A stretch of 64,000 bases of DNA from positions 96,001 through 160,000 of IMG/VR virus record IMGVR_UViG_3300044614_002195; one strand, written 5' to 3'. The notes below the pieces were generated by a model that was given only the letters and a program-made list of their open reading frames with translations, searched no databases and had not been told where the DNA came from. This document shows positions 25,473 through 61,647 of this stretch, piece by piece (the stretch's first letter is position 1; each line of letters opens with the position of its first letter). This DNA comes from a virus. The position numbers and the translations under genes are program-made.

Positions 25473-28172
25473 ATGAGCGATAAAAAAGAAAAAATAGAGG
25501 TACAGCCTACCTATAAAGAAAACAGTCAGCCTGAACTAATGATTATTTTTTCTCACCCAGGGAAAGATGATCTAGAAGAAAGGGCGTTCGGTAAAAAAGG
25601 TATGGCTGAAGAGGTATTGTCTGCGCTAAATGCTGCAGATATACCTCTTGATAAAGTGTACTTTACAGGAATGGTGAGGTATGGAATTGGTAATAAGCCT
25701 AAGCCGTCAGCAGAGGATATAGAATATTGGTCAGCCAAGCTGGACGAAGAAATTGCTGCAGTTAAACCTAAACTCATCATGCCTTTGGGTGCTGAAGTAT
25801 TCAAACGCATCATGCGTACAAATATTAAAATGGGTGATTATGTAGGCGAGATCACTGATACACCCTACGGTAAAGTTCTGGCAAACTATGCTCCTGGGAT
25901 GATCGTAGTGATGGATCCTACTAAGCGTCCTGAGTTCAGGGAGATATTCGTATTGGCTAAAAAGGCGTTAGATAACAATTTAAACTATAGAGAGTTTAAG
26001 TATGTGATCATAGACGATCCTAAAGACAATATCGAGATATTGAACAACTACATTGCCCGAGGTGAGTTTAAAATAGGCTATGACGCTGAATGGTACGGAG
26101 ATAAGTTTACAGACGACGAGGTAATGTATGAGTTTCAATATAGCTGCCAAAGAGATTTTGCAGTGATCTTGAATATCTCTAAAGACGGCTCCACAGAAAA
26201 CCGAGAGCTTCTAGATACGATGAAGATCATGCTAGAGCACCCTAAAGCCCAGCGTATGGGCTGGAACATAAGGGCTGACGATTTACGCTTGAGGCATAGA
26301 GGATTTAATTTACCTGACGAAACGCTAGCGTTTGACGGTATGAAGGCTGTGGCTTTCTTTGACTCTAGGCTCAGTAAGGGGCTAGAAACGGGGATTAAGC
26401 ACTTTACCGATTATGCTCCATACTATACAGCATTAAACAGAAAGGTTAAGGAGCATAAGCTTGGTAAAGCAGAAATGGCTAAGCTTAAGTTTTTGGAGCC
26501 TGACATATACCATCACTATTGTGCTGGTGACGCTGTGAGTCATCGTGAGGCCTGTCTGAGGATGATGGAGATTTTTCCGGAAAAACTCAAAGATCTATAC
26601 TACAACGTATATTTGCCATTAACCCATTACTTTACAGATATGGAGTTAACAGGTATTGCTGTTGATAAGCAGGTGCTAGAAGATCTTACTGATAAGTATC
26701 TAGAAAAATATAACGCACTCAAAGATGAGCTTGTTGTCTTTCTAAAAGATGAGTTTGGTGTAGAAGAATTTAATCCTAATTCTGCTCCACAGAAAAAATC
26801 TTTGCTTTTTGAGACACTACGCGTAACTCCAGCCTACTATACAAAGTCAGGCAAATCTCCAAAGTCTAAGGCGTGGTACGATAAACAGAAGCCACAGACT
26901 CAAAAAATGTACGAGCCCAGTACAAACGGCAAGAGTCTATCTACAATAAAATTCCAGCTTGAAGAGGCGCTAGATAAATACCCAAACGACCCTGATATCA
27001 TGAGGGTGCATAAAGCAATTACTCTACTGCTTAGCGTAAGTCGTGTAGGCGTATTTGCTACAAAGTTTTTATCTAAAAAAGGTGTAGTGCTCGACCCTGA
27101 GTCAGAGCTAGATGAAGATATTGATGAACCCTTGAAGCAAAGCTATTGGGCAGCTATCTGTAATGATGGTCGCGTTCATGCTAGCTTCTTTGAATGCTTA
27201 AAGAACTTCAGAGCTAGTAGTAGTCCTAATGTTCAGAATCCCGCTTCAAAGGTTTTAGCGTATATTCCAGATATATTCGTTCCAGGGTATAGCAAACTGA
27301 GCAGCGAAGAACAGCAATCGTGCAGCAAAATGCTACCTAAAAACATTAGGAATATTTTCTGTACAGGCAACCCTGACTATTATTGGACAGAGCTTGACGT
27401 AGCTGGGGCAGATTTGGCTATTATGGCCTTTTTGTCTAGAGACGAAGACTTTATTCACGATATCAGAGCAGGCAATTTCCATCAAACAAAGATGCGAGAA
27501 TACTTCAATGACGCTACCCTCACAAAGAAAGATGTGAGTAAGTATGTGATCGCCAAGAGTATTACTTTTCGAGTCTCGTACACAGCCGGGCTAAAATTCG
27601 CAGCAATGCCCATTCAAGCTGATATTTATGCTGAGAATGGCTTGCATGTAGGATTACATACTTTAGAGTATGCGCTTGAGACTTGGGAGAGATATCGCAA
27701 GTACATGGCCTACAGAGACAGATGTACTGACGAAGTTAAAAACCATAAGCGTATCACGAACGCCAGAGGGTTGGTTTTAAACTACGAAGAAACAGATAAT
27801 TTCGGTATTCTTGCCGGTTGGATGAATGAAAGCTTGGCTTTTCCCGTGGCCAGCGAGCTTGCATGGTTTATGTGGGAGTGTTCTGTAAATCTAAAAAACC
27901 TTCTAAAGAAAGAAGGCTTATGGATGAAGTACATATACCCAGTAAATACTGTGCATGATGCAGGCTATTGGGCTGTGCACAAAGATTTGGTAAATGATAA
28001 TTATATCCAGGAAGTTCTCAAATATGTATTCTGCCACCATACAAAGCTAGCCACCGGAGATAATGTAGGTTGCGAGCTGGCCATCATGGATAGATGGAAA
28101 GGTAAAGAAAAAGTATTTGAGAGAGAAACAGCCTGGAACTTTGAAAAGAACACATGGGAATGGAAAAAGTAA
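25473..28172 (+). CDS. polA: Family A DNA polymerase with UDG-like N-domain and 3'-5' exonuclease
   Basis: N-terminus with family-4 UDG-like layout (HPG, KPKLIMPLG); exonuclease YDAE / NIRAD / YCAGD; polymerase motif A LDVAGADL, motif B KSITFRVSY, motif C VHDA. Confidence 0.88.
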   Translation: MSDKKEKIEVQPTYKENSQPELMIIFSHPGKDDLEERAFGKKGMAEEVLSALNAADIPLDKVYFTGMVRYGIGNKPKPSAEDIEYWSAKLDEEIAAVKPKLIMPLGAEVFKRIMRTNIKMGDYVGEITDTPYGKVLANYAPGMIVVMDPTKRPEFREIFVLAKKALDNNLNYREFKYVIIDDPKDNIEILNNYIARGEFKIGYDAEWYGDKFTDDEVMYEFQYSCQRDFAVILNISKDGSTENRELLDTMKIMLEHPKAQRMGWNIRADDLRLRHRGFNLPDETLAFDGMKAVAFFDSRLSKGLETGIKHFTDYAPYYTALNRKVKEHKLGKAEMAKLKFLEPDIYHHYCAGDAVSHREACLRMMEIFPEKLKDLYYNVYLPLTHYFTDMELTGIAVDKQVLEDLTDKYLEKYNALKDELVVFLKDEFGVEEFNPNSAPQKKSLLFETLRVTPAYYTKSGKSPKSKAWYDKQKPQTQKMYEPSTNGKSLSTIKFQLEEALDKYPNDPDIMRVHKAITLLLSVSRVGVFATKFLSKKGVVLDPESELDEDIDEPLKQSYWAAICNDGRVHASFFECLKNFRASSSPNVQNPASKVLAYIPDIFVPGYSKLSSEEQQSCSKMLPKNIRNIFCTGNPDYYWTELDVAGADLAIMAFLSRDEDFIHDIRAGNFHQTKMREYFNDATLTKKDVSKYVIAKSITFRVSYTAGLKFAAMPIQADIYAENGLHVGLHTLEYALETWERYRKYMAYRDRCTDEVKNHKRITNARGLVLNYEETDNFGILAGWMNESLAFPVASELAWFMWECSVNLKNLLKKEGLWMKYIYPVNTVHDAGYWAVHKDLVNDNYIQEVLKYVFCHHTKLATGDNVGCELAIMDRWKGKEKVFERETAWNFEKNTWEWKK

Positions 28173-28732
28173 AATATATAAAACTAGGTAGCAATGGTCA
28201 TATAGCTATAGTAGATGCTGAAGACTACGATGATCTTGTTAAACATAAGTGGGGAGTTAAAAAAGGAAAATCCACTGCATACGCAGTTAGACATAAAAAG
28301 AAAAACGAAGTACTAATAGCGGCTAAAAAGGTCCGTATGCATAGAGAGATATTATCAAAAATATCTGAGATACCAGAAAAAATGGTTATAGATCATATAA
28401 ACCATAACGGTCTAGACAATAGAAAAGCTAACTTACGAGTATGCACTGTTTCTGAAAATGTCAGGAACAGTAGAACGTTTAAAAATAAAAAAGTTAAATA
28501 CAAAGGTGTTTTTATGGATCTAAGCAGCGCTAAAAACCCGTACAGGGCCTGTATCAGAGTTGACGGCAAACGTATAAGTCTGGGACAATATCCTACACCA
28601 GAAAAAGCAGCTAGAGCTTATAATGCCGCAGCTGTGAAATACTTTGGAGCTTTTGCCTACTTAAACGATGTGCCTGATACAGACGAAGAAGACTCAAAAG
28701 AGTTGACGCAATCTGAGCTTGAGCTGTCATGA
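28154..28732 (+). CDS. HNH-AP2 free-standing homing endonuclease
   Basis: MHREI, IDHINHNGLDNRKANLR, then AP2 domain YKGV...YRACI...LGQY.T.EKAARAYN.AA.KYFG.FA.LN. Confidence 0.92.
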   Translation: MGMEKVKYIKLGSNGHIAIVDAEDYDDLVKHKWGVKKGKSTAYAVRHKKKNEVLIAAKKVRMHREILSKISEIPEKMVIDHINHNGLDNRKANLRVCTVSENVRNSRTFKNKKVKYKGVFMDLSSAKNPYRACIRVDGKRISLGQYPTPEKAARAYNAAAVKYFGAFAYLNDVPDTDEEDSKELTQSELELS

Positions 28733-29451
28733 CTAGGTTTAAATTGACCAACAACAGCAAAGTCAGATTTAAAGCTAATCACTATAATACGTTTAGCCTG
28801 ACGCAAGGAGATCCTAAAGAAGGAGGCACATGCCCTGGTATGACAGAAGGACCAGGAGGATGTGCCGAGAAATGCTACGATAAAAATCTAAGAAAGTTAT
28901 ATAAAGCATACGCTAGTGTTGAAGATCACAATACTTCACTAGTAGTAGATAAATCTCCTGTAGATATGTATGAGACTATCAAGAATTCTGTAATGTACTG
29001 GTTGTTAAGTGGAGGCAATAGTACTCCCTACTTCCGCATACATACAGGAGGAGATTTTTATAACGAGGAGTATGCGAAAGCATGGGTCAAGGTAATGCAA
29101 GAGTACCCAGGAATAAATTTCTGGGCATACACCAGATCATTGTTCTGTGTTCCTATTCTTGCAGAAGTTAAAAATTTAACCTTGTATCTAAGCTGCGATC
29201 CAGTTAACAAAGACAAAGTACTGAAAGTATATTCAGGCTATAGAAATTATCCCAACGTAGCAATAGCTTGGATGGGTAATGAAATTCCTGAAAATTTATT
29301 TTCAGACAAAGCTTTTTTAGTTTGCCCTGAAGTTACGGGTAAGCTAAAAAATACAAAGACGGAAGGCGCTTGCTCTAGATGTAGAGCTTGCGTTGACCGT
29401 AAACTAAAAAACGGAAAAACAAGACACATACAGTTTCCTATCCACAGGTAA
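28729..29451 (+). CDS. Gp88-like Cys-rich protein (possible Fe-S/radical-SAM-like)
   Basis: TCPG...GCAEKCY, FRIHTGGDF, WAYTRS, LYLSCD, CPE...CSRCRAC. Confidence 0.7.
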   Translation: MTRFKLTNNSKVRFKANHYNTFSLTQGDPKEGGTCPGMTEGPGGCAEKCYDKNLRKLYKAYASVEDHNTSLVVDKSPVDMYETIKNSVMYWLLSGGNSTPYFRIHTGGDFYNEEYAKAWVKVMQEYPGINFWAYTRSLFCVPILAEVKNLTLYLSCDPVNKDKVLKVYSGYRNYPNVAIAWMGNEIPENLFSDKAFLVCPEVTGKLKNTKTEGACSRCRACVDRKLKNGKTRHIQFPIHR

Positions 29452-29869: not shown

Positions 29870-30130
29870 ATGAATACATACAAAATCGAAATCGCAGACA
29901 AGACCGGACACACAACTGTAGCTGACCTGACGCTAGATCAGGCAGTAGACGGAATTCTGGAGCACGCCGAGAACAATGCCCGCTGGGTATTCATTAACGG
30001 CGAAAAGTTTGAGTTCCAAGGAACCAACTATCGTGCAGAAGAGAACCTCCAAAAGCTTCGCGGCAAACTCGAGGCAGTGCAGGATCCTGCTGTGCTCCTG
30101 ACCGGTATTCTGATCGGCGGCCACAAGTAA
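29870..30130 (+). CDS. Ubiquitin-like (beta-grasp) protein with C-terminal GG-HK
   Basis: 86 aa from ATG 29870; beta-beta-helix-beta pattern ending VLLTGILIGGHK; clustered with JAB and ThiF genes. Confidence 0.72.
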   Translation: MNTYKIEIADKTGHTTVADLTLDQAVDGILEHAENNARWVFINGEKFEFQGTNYRAEENLQKLRGKLEAVQDPAVLLTGILIGGHK

Positions 30131-30152: not shown

Positions 30153-30190
30153 AAACCCCCTGGTGAGCAATCATCAGGGGGTTTCTTTTT
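30153..30190 (+). terminator. Intrinsic terminator after the Ubl gene
   Basis: AAACCCCCTGGTGA-GCAA-TCATCAGGGGGTTT followed by CTTTTT. Confidence 0.8.
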
Positions 30191-30234: not shown

Positions 30235-32334
30235 ATGGACCTACCTTATAAATCTTTTTTAAAAATAGCCAAACAAACACAAACATTAAGCAAGTACGTC
30301 AAGACAATGGACGTAAGCATCGATAAATCTACTGAATATGTGGATAATCAATATGTACCTACAGTAAAATTAGCTTACACAAGTCTACACTTCGATACGG
30401 TGGCAGACATGCATGCCTACTCCAAGTATCTACCTATACCCACACATAAGCTTAAAATAGGTGAAGACATCAGATACCAAGATCTTCAAGCAAACATAGC
30501 TCAACGTGGCGGATGGGACAATACGCACGTTATGCAATTTTTAAGACAGGATAGCTCTAAGGGCGAGCCTTCCGTAAAGCTTATCCCTGAAGAAACAGCG
30601 TATGCTTTTCGCCCTAATATAATCAAGCTCGCTCCTATCGAGTATACAGAAGGAGACTATACATACAGAATCCTTACAAACCAGAGTAGTAAAAACTATA
30701 CCGCTCGTATTCGAGTTATAGCTAGAAACGATGAGCCTATTTACGATTACCTGGATAAAGGGTTTTTCGTAATGACTGTTAATGAAAAATCTGACGAATT
30801 AACTAAGCCTTCGTTTGTTGTGTCAGATAGCTATGATGTGAATACTGCACACATTTTTATGATGTGTAAGCTACAGCATAACCTAATCAGTATGCTGAAA
30901 GACGAATGCTTTGTGAGTAAGTATGACGCAGAAATGCTTAAACTTAAAATGCTCAGAAAGCTAACTCCTGAAGCTAAAGCGTCATACTTGAAGCATTCGA
31001 AGGCGATTGATGAAGACTATCGTAAGAATACTACACTGGTAGTAGTTGGGAAATTGCTTAGCGGCGAAATTAAAAAAACGACTATTAGAGAAGTAGAGTT
31101 TTCAGCTACAACAGCAAAGTATGAGAATACTGAAATTGAAGCTGAGGATCTCATGACTGTACTGTCAAGAGACCTTGATTTTAATAGCGAGTTTGACATC
31201 TATGCTGTGGCTCAACTGTATGCCAATTATGCTGAAAAGTGCTTGGACGCTAAAGGCTGGAGTTACACAGAAATTGATGACATCAATGCTGGTGCAAATG
31301 AGCTCAAAAAGAAGAGTCTGCCTACGTTTAAAATAAACGGAATCAGTATATCTGCGGCAGTTTCTTATACAGGACAAAGGTACTTAAACGACACCAGGAT
31401 TAATCAGGACGAGGTGGCAAAGGCCATATACCGCGCTTCCTGCTATAGGTCAGCTGAAGACTATAATTTGTTCCTAAAGAGTATCAGCCGCATGAGTATC
31501 AAGAGACATGATATTATTGCAAATGGCCTGCAGGTAAAGATTCACGCAGGTATGACCATAGAAGAATTCAGGGAATCTACTCCTGGTGTAAATGCTCCTG
31601 CCCTTAAATTTGTGATTGATAAGCAAGATAAGCGTATCAAGCTGTATATTGATGAAAATCGACAAGTGCCTGTAGATATCAGCGGGCTGATCAAGAAGGT
31701 ACAAACGATCAACTCAAAAACAAACAATAGATCGTTTTACGATAGGTCAGACAATGCGTACAACTATATCAACAGAGATCATATTTGGGCAGCTGCGGAG
31801 CTTACAAAAGCCCTGATTGAGTTCACTACGTTCCCTGTAAAGTTTAAGAATCTGGAAGATGGTACGGTAATAGAAAAAGACCAGGTACTGATATCTAAAG
31901 ATGACGTTGCTAAACTGTTGAAAGTAGTTGATGAGCAGAACAAAGCTAAAATCGAAAGATCTAAGCAGTTCTTGAGTACTGCAGTAAAGCTTACAGGAGC
32001 TGAAGAAATTGAGTTCTTGGGACAAAAGGCTTATAGGGTAAAGGGTAGCCTTAGAGAATATGCTATAGTCATCAGTAACGCCAAGGTCTACGATTATGAG
32101 ACAAAACAATATCGCTGCATTGTTAATGACAGGCACTATAAAGGTGCAGGTTATGACGACGTGGCCAGCAGACTATTGGCTCTCAAGAACGACTCGGTAA
32201 TGCAAGATCATATCGGCACATTACGAGGGCAGGCTCAGCCAGGAGCTGAAAACGCTCACAATGATTACAGACCTGAACGTGACGTGCAGGACGTAATTAG
32301 CCCGATTGTAGATAAAGCATTCGAGAAAGTATAA
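30235..32334 (+). CDS. Large hypothetical protein with candidate E2-like C-terminal domain
   Basis: Likely start at 30235 (699 aa). C-terminal beta-meander, then AKVYDYETKQYRCIV (Cys628), then helix DDVASRLLALKND. Confidence 0.5.
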   Translation: MDLPYKSFLKIAKQTQTLSKYVKTMDVSIDKSTEYVDNQYVPTVKLAYTSLHFDTVADMHAYSKYLPIPTHKLKIGEDIRYQDLQANIAQRGGWDNTHVMQFLRQDSSKGEPSVKLIPEETAYAFRPNIIKLAPIEYTEGDYTYRILTNQSSKNYTARIRVIARNDEPIYDYLDKGFFVMTVNEKSDELTKPSFVVSDSYDVNTAHIFMMCKLQHNLISMLKDECFVSKYDAEMLKLKMLRKLTPEAKASYLKHSKAIDEDYRKNTTLVVVGKLLSGEIKKTTIREVEFSATTAKYENTEIEAEDLMTVLSRDLDFNSEFDIYAVAQLYANYAEKCLDAKGWSYTEIDDINAGANELKKKSLPTFKINGISISAAVSYTGQRYLNDTRINQDEVAKAIYRASCYRSAEDYNLFLKSISRMSIKRHDIIANGLQVKIHAGMTIEEFRESTPGVNAPALKFVIDKQDKRIKLYIDENRQVPVDISGLIKKVQTINSKTNNRSFYDRSDNAYNYINRDHIWAAAELTKALIEFTTFPVKFKNLEDGTVIEKDQVLISKDDVAKLLKVVDEQNKAKIERSKQFLSTAVKLTGAEEIEFLGQKAYRVKGSLREYAIVISNAKVYDYETKQYRCIVNDRHYKGAGYDDVASRLLALKNDSVMQDHIGTLRGQAQPGAENAHNDYRPERDVQDVISPIVDKAFEKV

Positions 32335-32336
32335 TT

Positions 32337-32771
32337 ATGTATATATTCAGATACGGTATAGAATCGTTCCTTAAAGCCATGATTGGTGCTTCTCTAGAGT
32401 GTACAAGCACCAAAGAGGAGGAAGGCGGTATTATCATGGAAAAAGATGCAGTGTATGAGTTCGTAAGAGTTAAAAATGTTTACGAAGGCACAGACAGAGC
32501 CTCAGGATTATATGAGACAGATCAAGAAGAGTTGTCTCAATTGATATTCTCCAGAGTCTGTAAAGGCTGGAAAATGCATGCCAGCTTTCATACGCATCCA
32601 TCGTTCAGTCCTACTCCTAGCAGCCTTGATTTGGATAAACTATTTCAAGGCTTTAGATACAACATCATATGGTCACCAACGCACAGAACATTCTCCTATT
32701 CAGCATGGATGGGTGAAGACTCGTATGTGACATACCTACCTATTAATACAATCGAGAAATTAATTAAATAA
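32337..32771 (+). CDS. JAB/MPN+ metallo-isopeptidase
   Basis: EEEGG catalytic Glu and exact HxH-x7-S-x2-D motif (HTHPSFSPTPSSLD). Confidence 0.9.
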   Translation: MYIFRYGIESFLKAMIGASLECTSTKEEEGGIIMEKDAVYEFVRVKNVYEGTDRASGLYETDQEELSQLIFSRVCKGWKMHASFHTHPSFSPTPSSLDLDKLFQGFRYNIIWSPTHRTFSYSAWMGEDSYVTYLPINTIEKLIK

Positions 32772-32772
32772 T

Positions 32773-33369
32773 ATGAAACTAGACAAAATTGCTATTGCAG
32801 GTGCAGGTGGAATCGGTTCTAACCTGTTGAGTATACTGTTTGACTACGGCTACAACAGAAAGCAGTTCAGCTATATGGATGTCGAGGTTGACATCTATGA
32901 CGATGATACTGTAGATATTAAAAACCTACTGCATCAAAACTTTAAAATTGATGACGTAGGCAAGCATAAAGTTAAAGTGCTAGAAGAAAAATACATTGCG
33001 CAAGGCATTGCTCGTCGGATGACTGAGGATGACTTCAGTAAATACAACGTGATCTTTAGCTGCGTGGACAGTATGTCGTTCAGGAAGAGCCTGTATGAGT
33101 ATGGCTGGAAAGTAGGAAACGATGAGTTATTCTGGGTTGACGGCAGGTGCACTAGCAGGCAAGGTGCATTGTTTACATCCGACATGCTTAAACCTGCGCT
33201 AGAGCCGTTTATTAATGACTCGCAAGAAGAGGGCGGTTGCCTTCTAGCCTACGAGAAAGAGCAGAACATCAGTCATACTCTACCTACAGTGGTAGCAGCT
33301 ATGATGGTTCAAGCATTCCTTAACAAGCTAAGGGGTCAGCAAACATTCAAGTCTGTATTCATGGTGTAA
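32773..33369 (+). CDS. ThiF/E1-like adenylyltransferase
   Basis: IAGAGGIGS, YDDDTVDIKNLLHQNF, GKHKV, SCVDS..FRK, WVDGR; no Zn CxxC pairs; extra Cys in EGGCL. Confidence 0.9.
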   Translation: MKLDKIAIAGAGGIGSNLLSILFDYGYNRKQFSYMDVEVDIYDDDTVDIKNLLHQNFKIDDVGKHKVKVLEEKYIAQGIARRMTEDDFSKYNVIFSCVDSMSFRKSLYEYGWKVGNDELFWVDGRCTSRQGALFTSDMLKPALEPFINDSQEEGGCLLAYEKEQNISHTLPTVVAAMMVQAFLNKLRGQQTFKSVFMV

Positions 33370-33650
33370 TGGCGGACTTAAATGACAAACAGCAGCAGAC
33401 AATAACAGCTGAAAAATATCTTCTAGGTATCCTTGACAAGATCTGCCTAACCGTAGATCTTCGTAGGGATGAGTGGGAGTTAAACAAAGATTTGCTTATA
33501 GCCATAAGTAAAAGCTATAAGACAAAAAAGAAAAAAGATACCGCATTGTTCTATAGCTATGATCAATGCTTCAATATGCTAAAAAAACTAAATATAAAGA
33601 TATCGTCAAAGTTCAAATGGTTCACAAATCTGGAAGAACACGTAAAGTAA
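33369..33650 (+). CDS. Hypothetical protein coupled to E1
   Basis: 93 aa, TAATG overlap. Confidence 0.6.
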   Translation: MADLNDKQQQTITAEKYLLGILDKICLTVDLRRDEWELNKDLLIAISKSYKTKKKKDTALFYSYDQCFNMLKKLNIKISSKFKWFTNLEEHVK

Positions 33651-33696: not shown

Positions 33697-34767
33697 ATGG
33701 CAATCATCAAACCATCACTAAAATTCGAAGGCTCAGAACTCAATCTTACGGTATCTGCCGCTCCATACATTCAAGAATCTGTCCGCAGGGCAGTGTTCAA
33801 CAAAACAAACAACCAAGAGGGCGCTTACCTGTATTTCTTGCCTGCTTACAAGGCAGACTCATCAGGTAACGGTATCTGGTACAAGAAGATCGCAGTTCGT
33901 GACAACTTTGGCACTAACTTCAAAGAAAAATACTACGTAGCTAATAGGGCTAACGACCCAGCCGAATACTTCGCAAACAACTTCAAGATCTTGTATCCTG
34001 AGGAAGCAAAGGTTACAGACACTGAAGTTAACGGTAGGAAGTTCAAGAAGTATCCAAACTTTGGTCGCGTTACTGAACGTGTTGTATACAACGTGGCTTT
34101 TGCTCAAAGCTTGTCTACAGGCGCGCATGTGCTAGATCTGCCGCTCAGGAATGGCGCAGACAACCTGATGAACTGGCTTGAGGGTAAGGATATGACTGGC
34201 AACAGGCGTAATCCTATCAATGATCCTGATCGTTGTGTACCTGTGTTTGTTAAGCTCAAGGAAAACAGCGCCAACCCTTGGATGATTCAGATTGAAAATA
34301 ATTCTCCAGTACAGTTGCCAGAGCAGCTTGCTGACAGTGATTATCTTTACAATCTAGATGAAATCTTCATAAATAAGCCTAAAGAAGAAATCATTGCAAA
34401 GCTGCGTGAGATGTATTCTGCGGATGTATTTGAGGATTGCATGAACGGTTACCCTGGGTTAACCAAGTCTAACACAGCAAGCTTCAATGTTACAGCCAAG
34501 CAGGTTACGCAGCCTGCTGTAGAATTACCTCCAGCTAGACCTCAAATGGAGATAGCTAAGGCTGTAATTAGTAGCGCTCCTGTCGCAGTGCCGGCAATAG
34601 AAATACCTAGAGCAGCGTTGACTGCCCCAGCGGTTGCCGTTAATGTTCCTATAGTGGCAAACATCTCTGATGCTCCTGCCGCTGTAGATATATCTTCCCT
34701 GCCACCAAATCCGATGGCAGGCAAGATTAGCCGCGCAGATGCGCTTAAGTTCATCAACCAAGACTAA
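33697..34767 (+). CDS. Probable single-stranded DNA-binding protein (gp32-like)
   Basis: YFLP, aromatic-rich beta core, YNV motif, Ala/Pro low-complexity tail; immediately upstream of recA. Confidence 0.55.
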   Translation: MAIIKPSLKFEGSELNLTVSAAPYIQESVRRAVFNKTNNQEGAYLYFLPAYKADSSGNGIWYKKIAVRDNFGTNFKEKYYVANRANDPAEYFANNFKILYPEEAKVTDTEVNGRKFKKYPNFGRVTERVVYNVAFAQSLSTGAHVLDLPLRNGADNLMNWLEGKDMTGNRRNPINDPDRCVPVFVKLKENSANPWMIQIENNSPVQLPEQLADSDYLYNLDEIFINKPKEEIIAKLREMYSADVFEDCMNGYPGLTKSNTASFNVTAKQVTQPAVELPPARPQMEIAKAVISSAPVAVPAIEIPRAALTAPAVAVNVPIVANISDAPAAVDISSLPPNPMAGKISRADALKFINQD

Positions 34768-34774
34768 ATAGACC

Positions 34775-35977
34775 ATGGATATAGACACATACCTGAACTC
34801 AATCAAGAAAAACTTCGGCAAGACCTTCAAGTCTGAAGCTGTTAATCTTGAACTGAATACGGCAGATAAAGAACTCCCGCCTACAGGCATTGTGTTGGAT
34901 AACCCGTTGTTAGAGTACGCATTCGACCGTAGGTTTATGGCCTACGGTCGGTGCTATCTACTCTACGGCAAGAAGGGCTGCTCCAAGACAACGCTATTGT
35001 TTGACCTGGCTAAAGTATTCCAGAAAGCTGGAGGAAAAATGTTTTGGATCGAGACCGAGAACGCTCCTGACTTCAGATATATGGAGTTACAGGGAGTAGA
35101 TCCGAAGCATGTAATCTACCACAACCCTAAAAGCCTGGAAGAGGCTCTTACGTTGTGCAAGATCATCATTCAAAACTATGCTAAGCATAGCGACGGCAAA
35201 ACACCTATCCTTATCGCACTAGACAGTATTGCAGGTGCTAGTACTGACTATGAGCGTGACCAAGATGTGATTGGTCAAACCAAAGTTGGCGAGCACGCAA
35301 AACTGATGAGTGCATTCTATAGGAATATTATTCCGTATCTAGAGTGTGAAAACATGGTGTTTGTTGCTACCAATCAGCTCAAAGAGCAGATTGGCGGAAT
35401 GACAGGCTTCGGTACAGAAAAGCCAGAAGCATTGATTGGTGGTGAAGCTCAGCGCTTTAACTCTACTTATCAATTCAAAGTGGCTCGAATCAAGGATAAT
35501 CTTGAAGAAGATCATATGGGAGTAAAGCGCAAGTCAGGCTCTACTCACACCCTGACAGTAAAGCGTAATAAGCTTGGTCGTGAGGGTAATAGCCAGAAGA
35601 TTGAATTCGATATCCATATCAATGGAGGTATTGATTGGTACTCTCCTCTAGTACGTATGCTGGGTGAAAATTATCCTGCATTGGTCGGTAAAACTGGAGG
35701 CTGGTATACCTGGAAAACTCCAGAAGTGCCATTCACTATTGATGTTGAAGGAGAACAGCAAACCCATAAAATTGACACAGAAAAGAAATTCCGTGAGCAA
35801 GATCTAGGGTTTGTAATCCAGAATAGTAGTGCAGCCAAAGAGATAGTGCGCAAAGCATTCGGTATTCCTGATATGCCTGCCCCTGAACTTGAGATGGAAA
35901 TCGAAAAAGTTAACAAGACAAAACGTAAAAGAGTAAGTGAATTAGAAGTTGAACCACTGGTCGAAAGCTATGAGTAA
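34775..35977 (+). CDS. recA: RecA/UvsX-like recombinase
   Basis: YGKKGCSKTT Walker A, IETE, LDSIAG, TNQLKE, GGEAQRF, KRNKLG, GIDW. Confidence 0.92.
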   Translation: MDIDTYLNSIKKNFGKTFKSEAVNLELNTADKELPPTGIVLDNPLLEYAFDRRFMAYGRCYLLYGKKGCSKTTLLFDLAKVFQKAGGKMFWIETENAPDFRYMELQGVDPKHVIYHNPKSLEEALTLCKIIIQNYAKHSDGKTPILIALDSIAGASTDYERDQDVIGQTKVGEHAKLMSAFYRNIIPYLECENMVFVATNQLKEQIGGMTGFGTEKPEALIGGEAQRFNSTYQFKVARIKDNLEEDHMGVKRKSGSTHTLTVKRNKLGREGNSQKIEFDIHINGGIDWYSPLVRMLGENYPALVGKTGGWYTWKTPEVPFTIDVEGEQQTHKIDTEKKFREQDLGFVIQNSSAAKEIVRKAFGIPDMPAPELEMEIEKVNKTKRKRVSELEVEPLVESYE

Positions 35978-38681: not shown

Positions 38682-39072
38682 GGGGGTGATTTGGTTTCGA
38701 CTAGATATGAGCCCTTATAGATGCATGTAGAGGAAGCCTGGTAGGCCTCTTAAAAAATCTAGGCAAAATAAACGCAGAGTCCTTTGACTACGCTCCCTCA
38801 GTAGCAGAAGCAGACGCATTCCTCGAAGCCACTGGCTTCGTTGGTGCTGAGCTCCTCGCTGCATAAGGTACAGGCCGGATGCTATTAAAAGCCTGTAAAC
38901 GTTAGTAGCTAGTGCTTGAAATTAGGACTGTTATTCAAGCAGAACAAGAACGGTTCAAAAGAAATTATATAGTTTGATTGTTGACGCTATAATTTCTTGC
39001 AAAAAACAATCTAAGCATGTAGATTCTATAAGATAAGTATTTAGGACAGGGGTTCAACTCCCCTCACCTCCA
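38682..39072 (+). ncRNA. ssrA: tmRNA; tag ORF 38774-38866 AESFDYAPSVAEADAFLEATGFVGAELLAA
   Basis: 5' GGGGGTG pairs with 3' CACCTCC-A including G3.U; TTCGAC; T-arm GACAGGGGTTCAACTCCCCT; pk1 AGAGG/CCTCT plus CCTGG/CTAGG; tag ends in LAA. CCA is not encoded. Confidence 0.95.
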
Positions 39073-39080
39073 CTTTTAAT

Positions 39081-39154
39081 CGCGGGATAGTGAAGTGGCA
39101 AAACAGGAGTCTCATAAGCTCCAGTCCCAGGTTCGATTCCTGGTCCCGCAACCA
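39081..39154 (+). tRNA. tRNA-Met(CAT) with initiator-type acceptor stem
   Basis: CGCGGGA/TCCCGCA with C1xA72, loop CTCATAA, CCA encoded. Confidence 0.9.
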
Positions 39155-39158
39155 ATTT

Positions 39159-39243
39159 GGGTAGTTCGCATAGCGGCTATTGCAGGAGACTGTAAATCTC
39201 CCCTCTTCGGAGACCGATGGTTCGAGTCCATCACTGCCCACCA
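39159..39243 (+). tRNA. tRNA-Tyr(GTA)
   Basis: GGGTAGT/ACTGCCC, loop CTGTAAA, long variable arm, CCA. Confidence 0.93.
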
Positions 39244-39244
39244 G

Positions 39245-39319
39245 GCCAGCATAGCTCAGTGGTAGAGCATTGGTTTTGTAAACCAACGGTCGTCGGTTCA
39301 ATCCCGACTGCTGGCTCCA
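39245..39319 (+). tRNA. tRNA-Thr(TGT)
   Basis: GCCAGCA/TGCTGGC, loop TTTGTAA, CCA. Confidence 0.93.
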
Positions 39320-39341
39320 TATTTTCTCCTCCAATTGGAGA

Positions 39342-39427
39342 GCGACACCTGCTGGTGGCTCAGTGCCATCAAGCCCTGATTGGGTCCATCCCTATTTGGG
39401 AAGTGGTGTGACACTGGGAGAGACCAG
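39342..39427 (+). ncRNA. Structured RNA motif, copy 2
   Basis: GCG-ACACC ... GGTGT-GACA-CTGG(GAGAGA)CCAG; ends 6 nt before tRNA-Asn. Confidence 0.55.
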
Positions 39428-39433
39428 GCATAC

Positions 39434-39508
39434 TCCTAGATAGCTCAATGGTAGAGCATTCGGCTGTTAACCGAACGGTTCCTGGTTCGAGTCCAGGTCT
39501 AGGAGCCA
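39434..39508 (+). tRNA. tRNA-Asn(GTT)
   Basis: TCCTAGA/TCTAGGA, loop CTGTTAA, CCA. Confidence 0.93.
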
Positions 39509-40946: not shown

Positions 40947-41966
40947 ATGGAAAAATATGCAGTAGTGGCAAAAATACTAGAGCTTAACCCTATCGAGGGA
41001 GCTGATCGTATCGAGGTGGCCACAGTTTTGGGTTGGAATGTTGTTACACAAAAGCATCTCCATAAAGTAGGAGATCTTGTTGTGATGATATTTCCTGACA
41101 CACTAGTACCTAAAAAATTCCTAGACGGAGCCTACCAGGGAGATGAAAAAGTGCGGTTAAAAACTGTAAAACTGAAAGGACAGTATAGTGCAGGACTATT
41201 ACTACCTATGAGTGTTGTGGGTAGCACCTTTAGTGAGGGAGATGAAGTCAGTGAACTCTTAGGTATTGAGAAGTGGATTGCGCCTGCGGCAGCTTCTATC
41301 TCGGGTGATGCAGTAGGTAATTTTCCAACAGGGGTTATTTCAAAAACAGATGAGTTTAATGCTAGGTCAGAACCAAATGCACTGAACGAGGCGCGCTTAT
41401 CTCCACTTGTAGGCCATGAGTTTGTTGTTACACTTAAATGTGACGGCAGCAGCGGTACATTTATATCAAAAGACGGGAAGCTTCGCGTATGCTCAAGAAA
41501 CCTTGAGCTAAAAGAGACAGAGGGAAATGCTTTCTGGCAGGTAGCTAAAAAGTATAACCTGCACGAGAAGCTCTTAAAATTTGGTGATGCTGTCGCCTTG
41601 CAGGGAGAAGTTTGTGGTCCAGGTATTCAGGGTAATCCCATGAAGCTTACTGAACTCACATTCTTCGCATTCCTGATGAAGGACATTAGACACGACGCAT
41701 GGTTAAGCTGGGGCACACTAAAGGCCTTTTGTGAAGAGTATCAAATTCCTCATGTAGAAGAGCTGAAGGTATTTAAATTCACTGAAACATCTCCTACACT
41801 AGAAGAACTGCAAGAGATGGCAAATAATGCGAAATACGATCATGGTCGTACTAATGCAGAAGGTATTGTTATCAGACCTGTAGCACCAATCAGATCATTA
41901 GTATTACAGAAGCCCTGGTGGAGCCTGAAAGTAATGAATCAACCGTACGACATGAAGAAAGGTTAA
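40947..41966 (+). CDS. RNA ligase (DRB0094/Rnl2-like) with N-terminal OB-fold
   Basis: PIEGADRIE, LKCDGSS (motif I), CSRN, QGEVCGPGIQGN, EGIVIR, LKV.N..Y. Confidence 0.9.
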   Translation: MEKYAVVAKILELNPIEGADRIEVATVLGWNVVTQKHLHKVGDLVVMIFPDTLVPKKFLDGAYQGDEKVRLKTVKLKGQYSAGLLLPMSVVGSTFSEGDEVSELLGIEKWIAPAAASISGDAVGNFPTGVISKTDEFNARSEPNALNEARLSPLVGHEFVVTLKCDGSSGTFISKDGKLRVCSRNLELKETEGNAFWQVAKKYNLHEKLLKFGDAVALQGEVCGPGIQGNPMKLTELTFFAFLMKDIRHDAWLSWGTLKAFCEEYQIPHVEELKVFKFTETSPTLEELQEMANNAKYDHGRTNAEGIVIRPVAPIRSLVLQKPWWSLKVMNQPYDMKKG

Positions 41967-42626
41967 ATGAAAAATACAGTAGAACTAATCGGATATTATG
42001 GTAATGATATGCTCCATGCCTGTAGCGCCTGGACCAGTACAAGTAGAAGTTTATCAGAGGAAAAGAAGGCTAGAATTCCTAAGATGTTAAAGGATCTTGC
42101 TAGCGCAGGACACCACACACCTTTCGAGAAAAGCAGCCTTCATTTCCTGGTAGATTGCGACATAGCAAGCCATATCCATCTACTCAAACACAGGGTAGGT
42201 GTTTCATTGAATGCTGAGTCAGCCAGGTATAAAGAGTTAAAAGAAGATAAGTTCTATATTCCTGAGGAATTCTATAGTACTCCTATAGATGCCCAGCATG
42301 GGCTGCATCCCTACGATAACTGGGGAGATTTGCTTAATGATAAATCTCAGGAAATGAACATGCTTTATCATGCAGCGTTAACAGATGTTGAAAAAGCCTA
42401 CGGACGTAAGAGAGCCAAAGAAAGCGCGAGATTCTTCAAAATGTATAATAGTCAGATTGAATCTGATGTTATGTTTAATTGGAGGTCCTTCCAGCACTTC
42501 CAAAAGCTCAGGAACAGTCCGGACGCACAGAAAGAGATACGAGAAATTGCTGAAAAAATGCTTTCTTTAGTAAAGGAAATCGAAGAATCTCCTTTTAAGC
42601 ATACAATAGCCGCATTTGAACTATAA
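41967..42626 (+). CDS. thyX: Flavin-dependent thymidylate synthase
   Basis: GHHTPFE, HLLKHRVGVSLNAESARY, NWRSF..F.KLR...AQKEIR. Confidence 0.93.
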   Translation: MKNTVELIGYYGNDMLHACSAWTSTSRSLSEEKKARIPKMLKDLASAGHHTPFEKSSLHFLVDCDIASHIHLLKHRVGVSLNAESARYKELKEDKFYIPEEFYSTPIDAQHGLHPYDNWGDLLNDKSQEMNMLYHAALTDVEKAYGRKRAKESARFFKMYNSQIESDVMFNWRSFQHFQKLRNSPDAQKEIREIAEKMLSLVKEIEESPFKHTIAAFEL

Positions 42627-61320: not shown

Positions 61321-61396
61321 GGGATTGTAGCTCAATGGTCAGAGCAGGCGACTCATAATCGCTTGGTTGGGGGTTCGAATCCCTCCAGTCCCACCA
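61321..61396 (+). tRNA. tRNA-Ile2(CAT, lysidine type)
   Basis: Anticodon arm AGAGCAGGCGACTCATAATCGCTTGGT as in bacterial tRNA-Ile2; paired G1-C72; CCA. Confidence 0.85.
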
Positions 61397-61407
61397 TTTT
61401 TTGATTA

Positions 61408-61495
61408 GGCTAAGTGGCGAAATGGCAGACGCAACGGACTTAAAATCCGTTGAGGAGCAATCCTCGTGAGGGTTCGAGTCCCTCCTTAGCTACCA
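61408..61495 (+). tRNA. tRNA-Leu(TAA)
   Basis: GGCTAAG/CTTAGCT, loop CTTAAAA, long variable arm, CCA. Confidence 0.93.
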
Positions 61496-61504
61496 TTTTA
61501 ATAT

Positions 61505-61564
61505 ATGTATTTACTCGTAATAGCCGCCATAGCCGTAACAATTTTCAACATCAGTAAGAAATAA
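61505..61564 (+). CDS. 19-aa hydrophobic micro-ORF between tRNAs
   Basis: MYLLVIAAIAVTIFNISKK. Confidence 0.35.
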   Translation: MYLLVIAAIAVTIFNISKK

Positions 61565-61570
61565 CTTTCT

Positions 61571-61647
61571 GTGCCTGTAGCTCAGCTGGATAGAGCAACG
61601 GATTTCTAATCCGTTGGTCGCAGGTTCAAATCCTGCCAGGCACGCCA
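61571..61647 (+). tRNA. tRNA-Arg(TCT)
   Basis: GTGCCTG/CAGGCAC, loop TTTCTAA, CCA. Confidence 0.93.

What the first reader, a model, noticed from the sequence alone, without database searches (positions are those of the whole stretch)
30235..32334. 699-aa protein with a candidate divergent E2 domain fused to a ~600-aa unknown region
Seen: the last ~100 aa read as a beta-meander (AYRVKG / EYAIVI / AKVYDY), then QYRC628IV, about 10 residues, and helix DDVASRLLALKND. Known: this layout mirrors the E2 core (HPNVY..G.ICL....helix..PN). Inference: it is an E2-like transferase whose large N-terminus selects substrates like a built-in E3. Alternative: from memory, the segment also resembles the C-terminal domain of DUF4132-type proteins, which would leave the cassette without a dedicated E2.
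Basis: inference. Interest (0 to 1): 0.7.

Follow-up and report, generated by a model that had tools for sequence, protein, structure and literature searches.

The report
Phage cysteine domain carrying ubiquitin-like tag
A 699-residue protein of an uncultured 198-kb freshwater phage ends in a small, loosely E2-shaped domain with a never-changing cysteine, which is predicted to hold the Gly-Gly tail of the ubiquitin-like protein encoded next to it; it probably serves as the missing carrier step of a phage-encoded protein-tagging kit, but it is not a classical E2.

Summary
The ORF (30235-32334, +) is real and encodes 699 aa. Its last ~110 residues fold as helix, four-strand meander, Cys628 loop, helices. 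Cys628 is invariant in 138 homologues aligned here that fall to 17% identity; 317 representative clusters match in all.

The gene sits in a conserved phage module: a Ubl precursor ending LIGG-HK, this protein, a JAB peptidase and a minimal 198-aa E1 with an invariant Cys156. Distant phages with different flanking genes keep the four together. No recognisable E2 occurs anywhere in the 198-kb genome.

The E2 reading is only partly supported:
- No UBC or Prok-E2 profile matches, and there is no HPN motif.
- Fold searches give only weak matches (Z up to 4.2), though these recur on UEV, E2, RWD and UFC1 folds.
- The only recurrent sequence signal is sub-threshold Pfam DUF7737 (13 of 24 domains, best 23.7 bits against a cut-off of 27).
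- A controlled complex prediction places the Ubl Gly-Gly tail on the Cys628 loop (score 0.83; best control 0.00).

A second near-invariant cysteine (Cys403) hints at a two-cysteine relay. My best reading is a non-canonical E2-like or E2/E3-hybrid Ubl carrier. This scan has reported the same module on other phage genomes. Thioester chemistry and targets are untested.

The parts
29870..30130 (+). Ubiquitin-like protein precursor (86 aa), ending ...GILIGG-HK
   Evidence: Translation. In 20+ homologues the GG is invariant and is followed by 0-10 variable residues; the extensions reach ~100 aa in L002 and ~40 aa in L029. Invariant positions are G13, H14, W39, G44, L63, G83, G84.
30153..30184 (+). 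Terminator-like hairpin (14 bp stem plus T-run) between the Ubl gene and the 699-aa gene
   Evidence: sequence. It contains the upstream GTG at 30163, so the ATG at 30235 is the start.
30235..32334 (+). 699-aa protein (the finding), member of a phage-only family of about 620-790 aa
   Evidence: 317 representative clusters at E<=1e-3. AF2 model pLDDT 93.6. No Pfam or PHROG family apart from sub-threshold DUF7737.
31375..31554 (+). Conserved internal block (residues 381-440) with the second near-invariant cysteine, Cys403 (codon 31441-31443)
   Evidence: Conservation profile of 138 sequences: C403 99%; N385, E393, S421, G431 at 90% or more.
31897..32223 (+). C-terminal Cys domain (residues 555-663): long helix, four-strand meander, Cys628 loop (codon 32116-32118), helices. 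Loosely UBC/UEV-shaped and predicted to bind the Ubl.
   Evidence: models; fold matches, Z<=4.2, to UEV/E2/RWD/UFC1; DUF7737 in 13 of 24 domains, below cut-off; complex score 0.83 against controls 0.00; interface includes 628-641.
32337..32771 (+). JAB/JAMM metallopeptidase (144 aa), candidate Ubl-trimming and deconjugating enzyme
   Evidence: Pfam Prok-JAB 3.1e-07. Intact H-T-H-x7-S-x2-D motif read from the translation. Starts 3 nt after the stop of the 699-aa gene.
32773..33369 (+). Minimal E1-like adenylating enzyme (198 aa)
   Evidence: Pfam ThiF 4.1e-17. Its profile hits NAE1/UBA3, SAE2, UBA1, MoeB, ThiF and Cap2 in the PDB. Invariant GxGGxG, D43, D45, N51, Q55, K66, D99, R104, D123, R125 and Cys156.
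33369..33650 (+). 93-aa ORF overlapping the E1 stop codon; kept in the close lineage; its membership of the module is uncertain
   Evidence: No family hit. No homologue of it was detected in the distant loci L003, L029, L030 and L033.

Best explanation
The 699-aa protein is the Ubl-accepting component of a phage-encoded ubiquitin-like conjugation module. It works as a non-canonical E2-like carrier and may be an E2/E3 hybrid.

Proposed sequence of events:
1. The JAB peptidase removes the two residues (HK) that cap the Ubl and exposes Gly-Gly.
2. The minimal E1 adenylates the Ubl C-terminus and probably carries it on its invariant Cys156.
3. The Ubl is handed to Cys628 in the C-terminal domain of the 699-aa protein. 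That domain binds the Ubl body with its first and second helices and lays the Gly-Gly tail along the Cys628 loop.
4. The ~550-residue N-terminal part, with the conserved block around Cys403, then chooses the target or relays the Ubl to it.

Shown here: the gene order and its conservation, the invariant residues, the fold models and the in-silico docking. Inferred: every chemical step and the existence of a target.
For: 1. Cys628 is invariant in 138 homologues (identity to the query falls to 17%). Only Cys403 is comparably conserved among the five cysteines.

2. The gene travels with the other three components.
- All 25 IMG/VR loci with enough flank keep Ubl, the 699-aa gene, JAB and E1.
- Distant phages with different flanking genes still keep the protein within a few kb of JAB and ThiF. 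These are L003 and L030 (next to ribonucleotide reductase, and in L003 a sigma factor) and L033 (next to Ku). L003 and L033 also carry a GG-ended Ubl.

3. The Ubl has an invariant GG followed by 0 to ~100 variable residues. This is the signature of a precursor that a peptidase must trim.

4. The E1 keeps all adenylation residues and an invariant Cys156.

5. No UQ_con or Prok-E2_A, B or E match exists anywhere in the 198-kb genome at E<=1, so the carrier slot is otherwise empty.

6. The order of secondary-structure elements equals the UBC layout: helix, four-strand meander, Cys loop, helices.
- In the whole-model search, 10 of the 11 listed rows that lie on residues ~553-670 are UEV, E2, RWD or Ubl-conjugation proteins (8 of them) or a Mediator subunit or a Bub complex chain whose fold class I did not check (2 of them).
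- Examples: Vps23 UEV Z 4.2, 86 aligned, rmsd 4.0; a chain of the Bub complex 9eav Z 3.7; Cap2 E2 region Z 3.3; E2S Z 3.2; UbcH5c Z 3.2.
- The second look lists TSG101 UEV Z 4.1, E2H 3.0, UFC1 2.7 and the Bil E2 chain 8tz0_C 2.3.

7. Complex prediction of residues 545-699 with the mature Ubl scored 0.83 (runs 0.70, 0.84, 0.83).
- The best of 3 controls scored 0.00. The mark was reached by 58 of 80 solved complexes and 2 of 110 mismatched pairs.
- The runs agree in at least 95% of contacts, and the partner pLDDT is at least 85.
- The interface covers 572-587, 628-641 and 644-663 on the protein, and 7, 9-14, 37-48 and 74-84 on the Ubl.
- It holds 6 of the 7 invariant Ubl positions, including G83 and G84, and it holds Cys628.
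Against: - No sequence profile of any E2 family matches, and there is no HPN motif.
- All structural matches are weak. Z is 4.2 or below, Foldseek finds nothing at E<0.1 for the domain, and the tool's own note says Z below 8 can reflect a common arrangement only.
- The best fold match is to UEV domains, which are non-catalytic ubiquitin binders.
- The E1 lacks a ubiquitin-fold domain that would recruit an E2.
- The complex score is a model's confidence, not a measurement, and was obtained with my own alignments.
- No target, thioester or expression data exist.
Confidence: 0.55

Rival explanations
1. The 699-aa protein is not an enzyme of the cascade. It is the dedicated target or a non-catalytic Ubl receptor: its C-terminal domain binds the Ubl as UEV domains bind ubiquitin, and Cys628 has a structural or redox role.
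For: The best fold matches are UEV domains (Vps23 Z 4.2, TSG101 Z 4.1). The predicted interface is large and mostly non-covalent, with 118 contacts. Minimal E1 systems such as SAMP/TtuB, from established knowledge, conjugate without any E2.
Against: UEV domains lack the active-site cysteine, whereas Cys628 is invariant across 138 sequences and sits in the predicted interface beside the Gly-Gly tail. A mere target would not be expected to keep one loop cysteine at 17% identity.
Confidence: 0.17
2. The module is a sulfur-carrier pathway of the ThiS/MoaD/TtuB/CysO type. JAB uncaps the Ubl and E1 adenylates it. The Ubl becomes a thiocarboxylate, and the 699-aa protein uses its cysteines (C628, C403) as a persulfide relay or sulfur-inserting enzyme, perhaps for a nucleotide or nucleic-acid modification made by the neighbouring replication genes.
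For: A GG-ended beta-grasp protein with a short E1 and a JAB that removes a C-terminal cap is exactly the CysO/Mec+ and QbsE/QbsD layout (established knowledge; Iyer et al. 2006, PMC1779556). The E1 is MoeB/ThiF-sized and matches MoeB, ThiF and Uba4. The module lies among DNA-metabolism genes.
Against: Pfam found no rhodanese, cysteine desulfurase, PP-loop ATPase, ThiG, MoaE or CysM-type partner among the 20 flanking proteins scanned, nor in the 699-aa protein. The E1 profile scores best on conjugating E1s (UBA3, SAE2). The C-terminal domain resembles conjugation-type folds, not sulfurtransferases.
Confidence: 0.13
3. The C-terminal domain is simply a DUF7737-type domain with a function unrelated to Ubl handling. 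Its linkage to Ubl, JAB and E1 reflects shared timing of expression in the replication module and not a shared pathway.
For: DUF7737 is the only Pfam family that recurs (5 of 58 full-length members, 13 of 24 isolated domains). In the close lineage the whole replication region is syntenic, so that synteny alone is weak evidence.
Against: The linkage survives in phages whose flanking genes differ completely. The controlled complex prediction passes with invariant residues of both partners in the interface.
Confidence: 0.06

Closest known systems
Pfam DUF7737 (PF24879), a domain of unknown function. Earlier notes of this scan say it is the C-terminal domain of bacterial DUF4132 proteins; I did not verify that.
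   Same: It is the only sequence family that recurs. The match covers profile positions 5-63 of 103, aligned to residues 577-635, which is the meander plus the Cys628 loop. Thirteen of 24 diverse C-terminal domains hit it.
   Different: Every score is below Pfam's cut-off (best 23.7 bits against 27). The phage protein has no DUF4132 domain. E. coli YehI has DUF4132 but no DUF7737. I could not fetch any true DUF7737 member for a profile-profile test.
E2/UBC superfold: UBC enzymes, UEV domains (Vps23, TSG101), RWD domains, UFC1, and the bacterial E2s of Cap2, Bil and Bub
   Same: The same order of elements: N-terminal helix, four-strand antiparallel meander, a loop carrying the conserved cysteine, then helices. 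These are the recurrent best fold matches. The Ubl tail is predicted to lie on the cysteine loop.
   Different: There is no profile match and no HPN motif. The cysteine sits 8 residues after strand 4, against about 16 in UbcH5 (from memory). The first helix is very long (33 residues). Z is 4.2 or below. The domain is fused to a ~550-aa unknown region.
Bacterial Ubl-conjugation defence operons: Bil (BilABCD), type II CBASS (Cap2/Cap3) and Bub (PMC10557695, PMC10097602, PMC11601596)
   Same: A Ubl with a C-terminal glycine, an E1-like adenylating enzyme and a peptidase that trims or removes the Ubl, encoded together.
   Different: Here the module is carried by lytic-type phage genomes inside the replication and recombination gene block, not by bacterial defence islands. 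The E1 is a bare 198-aa adenylation domain. The E2 is replaced by the Cys domain of a 699-aa protein. No relative of that protein was found in one genome each of 185,579 prokaryote species with the close-relative patterns used.
Large E2/E3 hybrid ligases of eukaryotes (UBE2O, BIRC6) and two-cysteine relay ligases (HECT, RBR, RCR). This is an analogy from established knowledge only.
   Same: A carrier-type cysteine domain fused to a large region that could select substrates, plus a second conserved cysteine (Cys403) that could relay the Ubl.
   Different: No sequence or fold relationship was detected. The relay is pure inference.

Membership tests
E2/UBC (Pfam UQ_con PF00179; Prok-E2_A PF14457, Prok-E2_B PF14461, Prok-E2_E PF14462) | Significant match to a family profile | tested here: not met
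   The Pfam scan of the protein gives only DUF7737. Six-frame searches of the whole 198-kb genome with the four profiles give no match at E<=1. Prok-E2_C and Prok-E2_D were not searched.
E2/UBC | UBC fold: N-terminal helix, four-strand antiparallel meander, active-site loop, C-terminal helices | tested here: inconclusive
   The DSSP order of elements agrees. VIA-align matches to UEV, E2, RWD and UFC1 recur but are weak: Z 2.3-4.2, 80-93 residues aligned, rmsd 3.5-4.7. Foldseek finds nothing at E<0.1.
E2/UBC | Conserved catalytic cysteine in the loop after strand 4 | tested here: met
   Cys628 lies 8 residues after strand 618-620 and is invariant in 138 sequences.
E2/UBC | HPN (His-Pro-Asn) motif upstream of the cysteine | tested here: not met
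   The sequence between strand 4 and the cysteine reads YETKQYR. No conserved His, Pro or Asn lies there. Near-invariant N652 and D653 follow the next helix instead.
E2/UBC | Binds its Ubl with the C-terminal glycine at the catalytic cysteine | tested here: met
   In silico only. Complex score 0.83 against a best control of 0.00 (the mark was reached by 58 of 80 solved and 2 of 110 mismatched pairs). Ubl residues 78-84 touch residues 628-632 and 644-649.
E2/UBC | Forms a Ubl thioester received from E1 | not testable with these tools
   Needs biochemistry.
Pfam DUF7737 (PF24879) | Score at or above the curated cut-off (27 bits) | tested here: not met
   18.9 bits for the full protein, 22.1 bits in the genome search, 23.7 bits for the isolated domain.
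Pfam DUF7737 (PF24879) | Homology shown by recurrent or profile-profile similarity | tested here: inconclusive
   13 of 24 diverse domains hit it at E<=0.1, while every other family is hit by 2 or fewer. No profile-profile test was possible because no true member could be fetched.
Bil / type II CBASS / Bub Ubl-conjugation operons | Ubl with C-terminal glycine, an E1 adenylation domain and a Ubl peptidase in one gene cluster | tested here: met
   Ubl GG; ThiF 4.1e-17 and PDB E1 hits; Prok-JAB with an intact JAMM motif.
Bil / type II CBASS / Bub Ubl-conjugation operons | Recognisable E2 (or an E1-E2 fusion) and a bacterial defence context | tested here: not met
   No E2 profile hit. PADLOC hits are limited to JAB models and the Rossmann part of E1-E2 models. 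The locus is a phage replication block: PolA-UDG, helicases, SbcC-like, RecA.
ThiS/MoaD-type sulfur-carrier systems | Associated sulfur donor or acceptor enzyme (rhodanese, cysteine desulfurase, ThiG, MoaE, CysM, PP-loop thiolase) | tested here: not met
   No such Pfam family among the 20 proteins scanned between 18330 and 42626. The rest of the genome was not scanned for these.

The most novel reading that the evidence does not exclude
Large freshwater phages carry their own complete protein-tagging system. In it a new, DUF7737-related cysteine domain replaces the classical E2 and works with a second cysteine (Cys403) of the same 699-aa protein as a two-step E2/E3 relay, tagging host or phage proteins during infection. 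This would give DUF7737 its first function and would show that Ubl conjugation is used by phages as well as against them.
Probability: 0.3. Interest if true: 0.8.

Novelty: new variant of a known kind. Interest (0 to 1): 0.65.

Why it matters
Ubiquitin-like conjugation in prokaryotes has so far been characterised as bacterial equipment: sulfur transfer, and the CBASS, Bil and Bub defences. Here the same logic (capped Ubl, trimming JAB, E1) sits in the replication block of a widespread group of uncultured phages. The family has 317 representative protein clusters, and this stretch occurs in lake and river metagenomes.

The carrier step appears to be done by a cysteine domain that no E2 profile recognises. 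If that holds, three things follow:
- It adds a new structural solution for the E2 step.
- It suggests a function for the DUF7737 domain.
- It raises the question of which host or phage proteins these phages tag.

It is directly testable with four recombinant proteins. The full-text searches I ran found no paper describing this module, which is not proof of absence. This scan has already reported the same module on other phage genomes, so this window is a further, independent instance, not a first sighting.

Tried and rejected
- Foldseek of the full model and of the domain model against the PDB gave nothing significant (best E 0.012 and 0.1, unrelated proteins).
- VIA-align wide search with the isolated domain was swamped by long-helix matches with Z up to 4.6. 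UEV domains were still at Z 4.2 and 3.8.
- BFVD gave three unnamed viral proteins of 416-452 aa (E 1.8e-06 to 2.6e-04) and no functional information.
- Sequence searches of the PDB with the protein and with the 138-row profile gave nothing meaningful.
- tblastn against 50,697 GenBank phage records gave no match.
- tblastn of the domain against plasmids gave only noise.
- PHROGs and PADLOC had no family for the protein.
- The ESM Atlas gave no usable hit in two tries.
- I tried to fetch true DUF7737 members for a profile-profile test. There were none in E. coli K-12, in five genomes reached through E1 loci, or in 500 genomes of two phyla. E. coli YehI carries DUF4132 but not DUF7737. The link between DUF7737 and DUF4132 therefore remains unverified by me.
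- I tried to fetch prokaryotic E2 members for hhalign. Prok-E2_B was not found in 251 genomes, so I abandoned this.
- A search for stand-alone copies of the C-terminal domain (61-228 aa) found hits only on contigs of 3.2 kb or less. The two I inspected begin at the contig edge and look like truncated genes.
- The 'longer' search returned only the same phage family.
- No relative of the 699-aa protein was found in genome contigs with close-relative patterns.
- Expression: no RNA holder was listed among the public runs, so this gives no information on expression.
- The 93-aa ORF after E1 and the 356-aa ORF were considered as module members. I set them aside because they are kept only in the nearer lineages (the close loci, and for p356 also L002 and L029) and were not detected in L003, L030 or L033.
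Full report
**What is there**

The window is bases 96001-160000 of a 198,289-bp IMG/VR virus record that CheckV rates complete. The same stretch occurs in lake and river metagenomes.

The finding's ORF is real. The frame is open from 30163. The GTG at 30163 lies inside a strong terminator-like hairpin at 30153-30184 that follows the upstream gene, and close homologues begin at the ATG. The gene is therefore 30235-32334, 699 aa.

The gene order around it is as follows:

| Window position | Product |
|---|---|
| 25473-28172 | PolA fused to a UDG-like domain |
| 28154-28732 | HNH-AP2 endonuclease |
| 28729-29451 | GP88-family protein |
| 29870-30130 | 86-aa protein ending GILIGG-HK |
| 30235-32334 | the 699-aa protein |
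| 32337-32771 | Prok-JAB peptidase |
| 32773-33369 | 198-aa ThiF/E1 |
| 33369-33650 | 93-aa ORF |
| 33697-34767 | 356-aa ORF |
| 34775-35977 | RecA |

The 699-aa gene, JAB, E1 and the 93-aa ORF are separated by 2, 1 and -1 bases. This indicates one translationally coupled unit behind the separately terminated Ubl gene.

**The family**

The protein has 74 close relatives and 317 representative clusters at E<=1e-3 in a 1.8-billion-protein library. Most are 620-790 aa. All contigs that I inspected looked like phage genomes, some 130-220 kb long. No relative was found in one genome each of 185,579 prokaryote species with the close-relative patterns used, or in GenBank phages.

In a 138-sequence alignment whose identity to the query falls to 17%, only six columns are invariant: R145, D174, G604, C628, D653 and T662. 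Of the five cysteines only C628 (100%) and C403 (99%) are conserved. Conservation peaks in two blocks, residues 381-440 and 561-663.

**The fold**

AlphaFold2 gives confident models: full length pLDDT 93.6 and residues 545-699 alone pLDDT 92.0. The C-terminal domain has these elements in order:
- helix 555-587
- strands 590-594, 597-603, 608-612 and 618-620
- a loop with Cys628
- helix 641-651, followed by short helices

This order of elements is that of the UBC/UEV/RWD superfold, but the quantitative support is weak.
- Foldseek finds nothing.
- In the whole-model VIA-align search, ten of the eleven listed rows that lie on residues ~553-670 are UEV, E2, RWD or Ubl-conjugation proteins (eight rows) or chains whose fold class I did not check (two rows: a Mediator subunit and a Bub complex chain). 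They are Vps23 UEV (Z 4.2, 86 aligned, rmsd 4.0), VPS37A, a chain of the Bub complex 9eav (Z 3.7), FANCL, the E2 region of Cap2 (Z 3.3), E2S and UbcH5c (Z 3.2), an RWD domain, Ctf19-Mcm21 and a Mediator subunit.
- The second look at Foldseek's candidates ranks TSG101 UEV first (Z 4.1, 90 aligned), then E2H (3.0), UFC1 (2.7), Spc24/25 (2.5) and the Bil E2 chain 8tz0_C (2.3).
- The tool warns that Z below 8 may be a common arrangement.

I therefore call the domain loosely E2-shaped, not a demonstrated UBC fold.

At the sequence level no E2 profile matches the protein or anything else in the genome, and there is no HPN motif.

The one recurrent sequence signal is Pfam DUF7737:
- 18.9 bits for the whole protein
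- 22.1 bits in the genome search
- 5 of 58 full-length members
- 13 of 24 isolated domains, best 23.7 bits

All of these are below the 27-bit cut-off. They align profile positions 5-63 to the meander plus cysteine loop. But DUF7737 has no known function, so it does not compete with an E2-like role. I could not obtain true DUF7737 sequences to test the relationship further.

**The module**

The upstream 86-aa protein belongs to a family with invariant G13, H14, W39, G44, L63 and a terminal G83-G84. After the GG come 0-10 unconserved residues (none, HK, RK, TKA, DKQSL, LLQELLSLE and others). Two distant phages have a ~40-aa or ~100-aa extension. This is the hallmark of a Ubl or sulfur-carrier precursor that a peptidase must uncap.

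The JAB keeps the JAMM motif H-x-H-x7-S-x2-D.

The E1 is a bare adenylation domain. It has invariant GxGGxG, D43, D45, N51, Q55, K66, D99, R104, D123, R125 and a single invariant Cys156. Its profile scores best on UBA3, SAE2 and UBA1, and also hits MoeB, ThiF and Cap2.

The four genes stay together in all 25 IMG/VR loci with enough flank. That lineage is syntenic throughout, so it counts as roughly one observation. More telling are distant relatives at about 20% identity in phages with different neighbours:
- L003 and L030 lie next to ribonucleotide reductase (L003 also a sigma factor).
- L033 lies next to Ku, and there the order is changed to ThiF, Ubl, JAB, 3 kb away.
- All three still keep JAB and ThiF nearby.
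- L003 (ending LVGG) and L033 (ending LVGG-Q) keep a recognisable Ubl.

**Docking test**

- The score was 0.83 (runs 0.70, 0.84, 0.83). The best of three controls was 0.00.
- The pass mark was reached by 58 of 80 solved complexes and 2 of 110 mismatched pairs in the tool's calibration.
- The runs agree in at least 95% of contacts, and the partner pLDDT is at least 85.
- The counts hold only roughly, because my own alignments were used. The score is the model's confidence, not a measurement.
- The interface comprises residues 572-587, 628-641 and 644-663 of the protein, and residues 7, 9-14, 37-48 and 74-84 of the Ubl.
- It therefore contains six of the seven invariant Ubl positions, including the Gly-Gly.
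- It also contains eight of the fifteen conserved positions of the domain: C628, V630, D641, R646, A649, N652, T662 and L663.
- Ubl L81 is predicted to touch 629-631. The tail thus runs along the cysteine loop, which is the geometry expected of a carrier that receives the C-terminus on that cysteine.

**Mechanism proposed**

1. JAB uncaps the Ubl.
2. E1 adenylates it and probably carries it on Cys156.
3. The Ubl passes to Cys628.
4. The N-terminal 550 residues select a target or relay the Ubl. These residues match no known domain and gave only weak PAS-like fold hits for residues 14-169. Cys403 may take part in the relay.

Only gene linkage, conservation, fold models and the in-silico docking are shown. 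All chemistry is inferred. I put this at about 0.55.

The rivals are:
- a non-catalytic Ubl receptor or dedicated target (0.17). The best fold match is UEV, but UEVs lack the cysteine.
- a sulfur-carrier pathway (0.13). The layout fits CysO/Mec+, but no sulfur enzyme is nearby.
- an unrelated DUF7737 function (0.06).

**Comparison and novelty**

In function the module resembles the Bil, type II CBASS and Bub conjugation systems (PMC10557695, PMC10097602, PMC11601596). It differs in four ways: it is phage-borne, it lies in a replication block, it has a minimal E1, and it has a non-UBC cysteine domain fused to a large unknown region. It is not a member of the E2 family by any sequence criterion tested.

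My literature searches found no description of it. Iyer et al. 2006 describe only the Ubl/JAB pair of lambda-type tail assembly.

Earlier notes of this scan describe the same module on other phage genomes and reach similar readings. I treated them as leads. On this genome I re-derived independently the invariant cysteines, the GG-capped Ubl, the sub-threshold DUF7737 signal and the docking result. Their claim that bacterial DUF4132/DUF7737 proteins pair with GG-ended Ubls I could not test. I confirmed only that the Deinococcus drA0165-drA0166 operon is DNA-damage-induced and that DRA0166 carries DUF4132 (PMC8533742).

**Verdict**

This is a new variant of a known kind. Interest is moderate to high, because the key claim can be tested with four proteins.

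Noticed in passing
window 31375-31554 (residues 381-440; Cys403 codon 31441-31443): A second near-invariant cysteine (99% of 138 sequences) sits at the end of a helix in the other highly conserved block of the protein (RINKDE...RASCY...FLKSISRMS...HD..ANG). It could be a second catalytic site.
   Followed up: partly
window 30153-30184: A strong terminator-like hairpin (14 bp stem, T-run) separates the Ubl gene from the tightly packed genes for the 699-aa protein, JAB and E1. This suggests the Ubl is made in excess over the enzymes.
   Followed up: partly
L002:5396-5944 and L029:4461-4910: In two distant phages the Ubl is followed, after its Gly-Gly, by a ~100-aa or ~40-aa extension in place of a 0-10-residue cap. 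The Ubl is therefore made as a fusion that must be cleaved.
   Followed up: no
L014:8157-8303 and L014:9458-9931: The E1 gene of one related phage matches in two pieces about 1.15 kb apart. This looks like an insertion (intron, intein or homing element) splitting the E1.
   Followed up: no
L003:5560-5988, L030:4617-4982, L032:2141-2506: In the distant subgroup a conserved 121-142-aa ORF (no family hit on record) lies immediately upstream of the large protein, where this window has the Ubl. Its role is unknown.
   Followed up: no
L035 and L040 (Poseidoniales archaeon MAG contigs): The nearest E1 relatives in cellular genome bins (26% identity, HMM E 1e-23 to 2e-25) are on short contigs binned with marine group II archaea. 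No homologue of the 699-aa protein lies beside them. They may be viral contigs.
   Followed up: partly
window 38682-39508 and 61321-61647: The phage encodes a tmRNA with a 30-residue tag (AESFDYAPSVAEADAFLEATGFVGAELLAA) followed by tRNA-Met, Tyr, Thr and Asn. A second cluster holds tRNA-Met, Leu and Arg.
   Followed up: no
window 25473-28732: The family A DNA polymerase carries an N-terminal UDG-superfamily domain. It overlaps at its 3' end an HNH-AP2 homing-endonuclease-like gene.
   Followed up: no
window 40947-42626: An RNA ligase with a PHA02142-type OB domain lies next to a ThyX thymidylate synthase.
   Followed up: no
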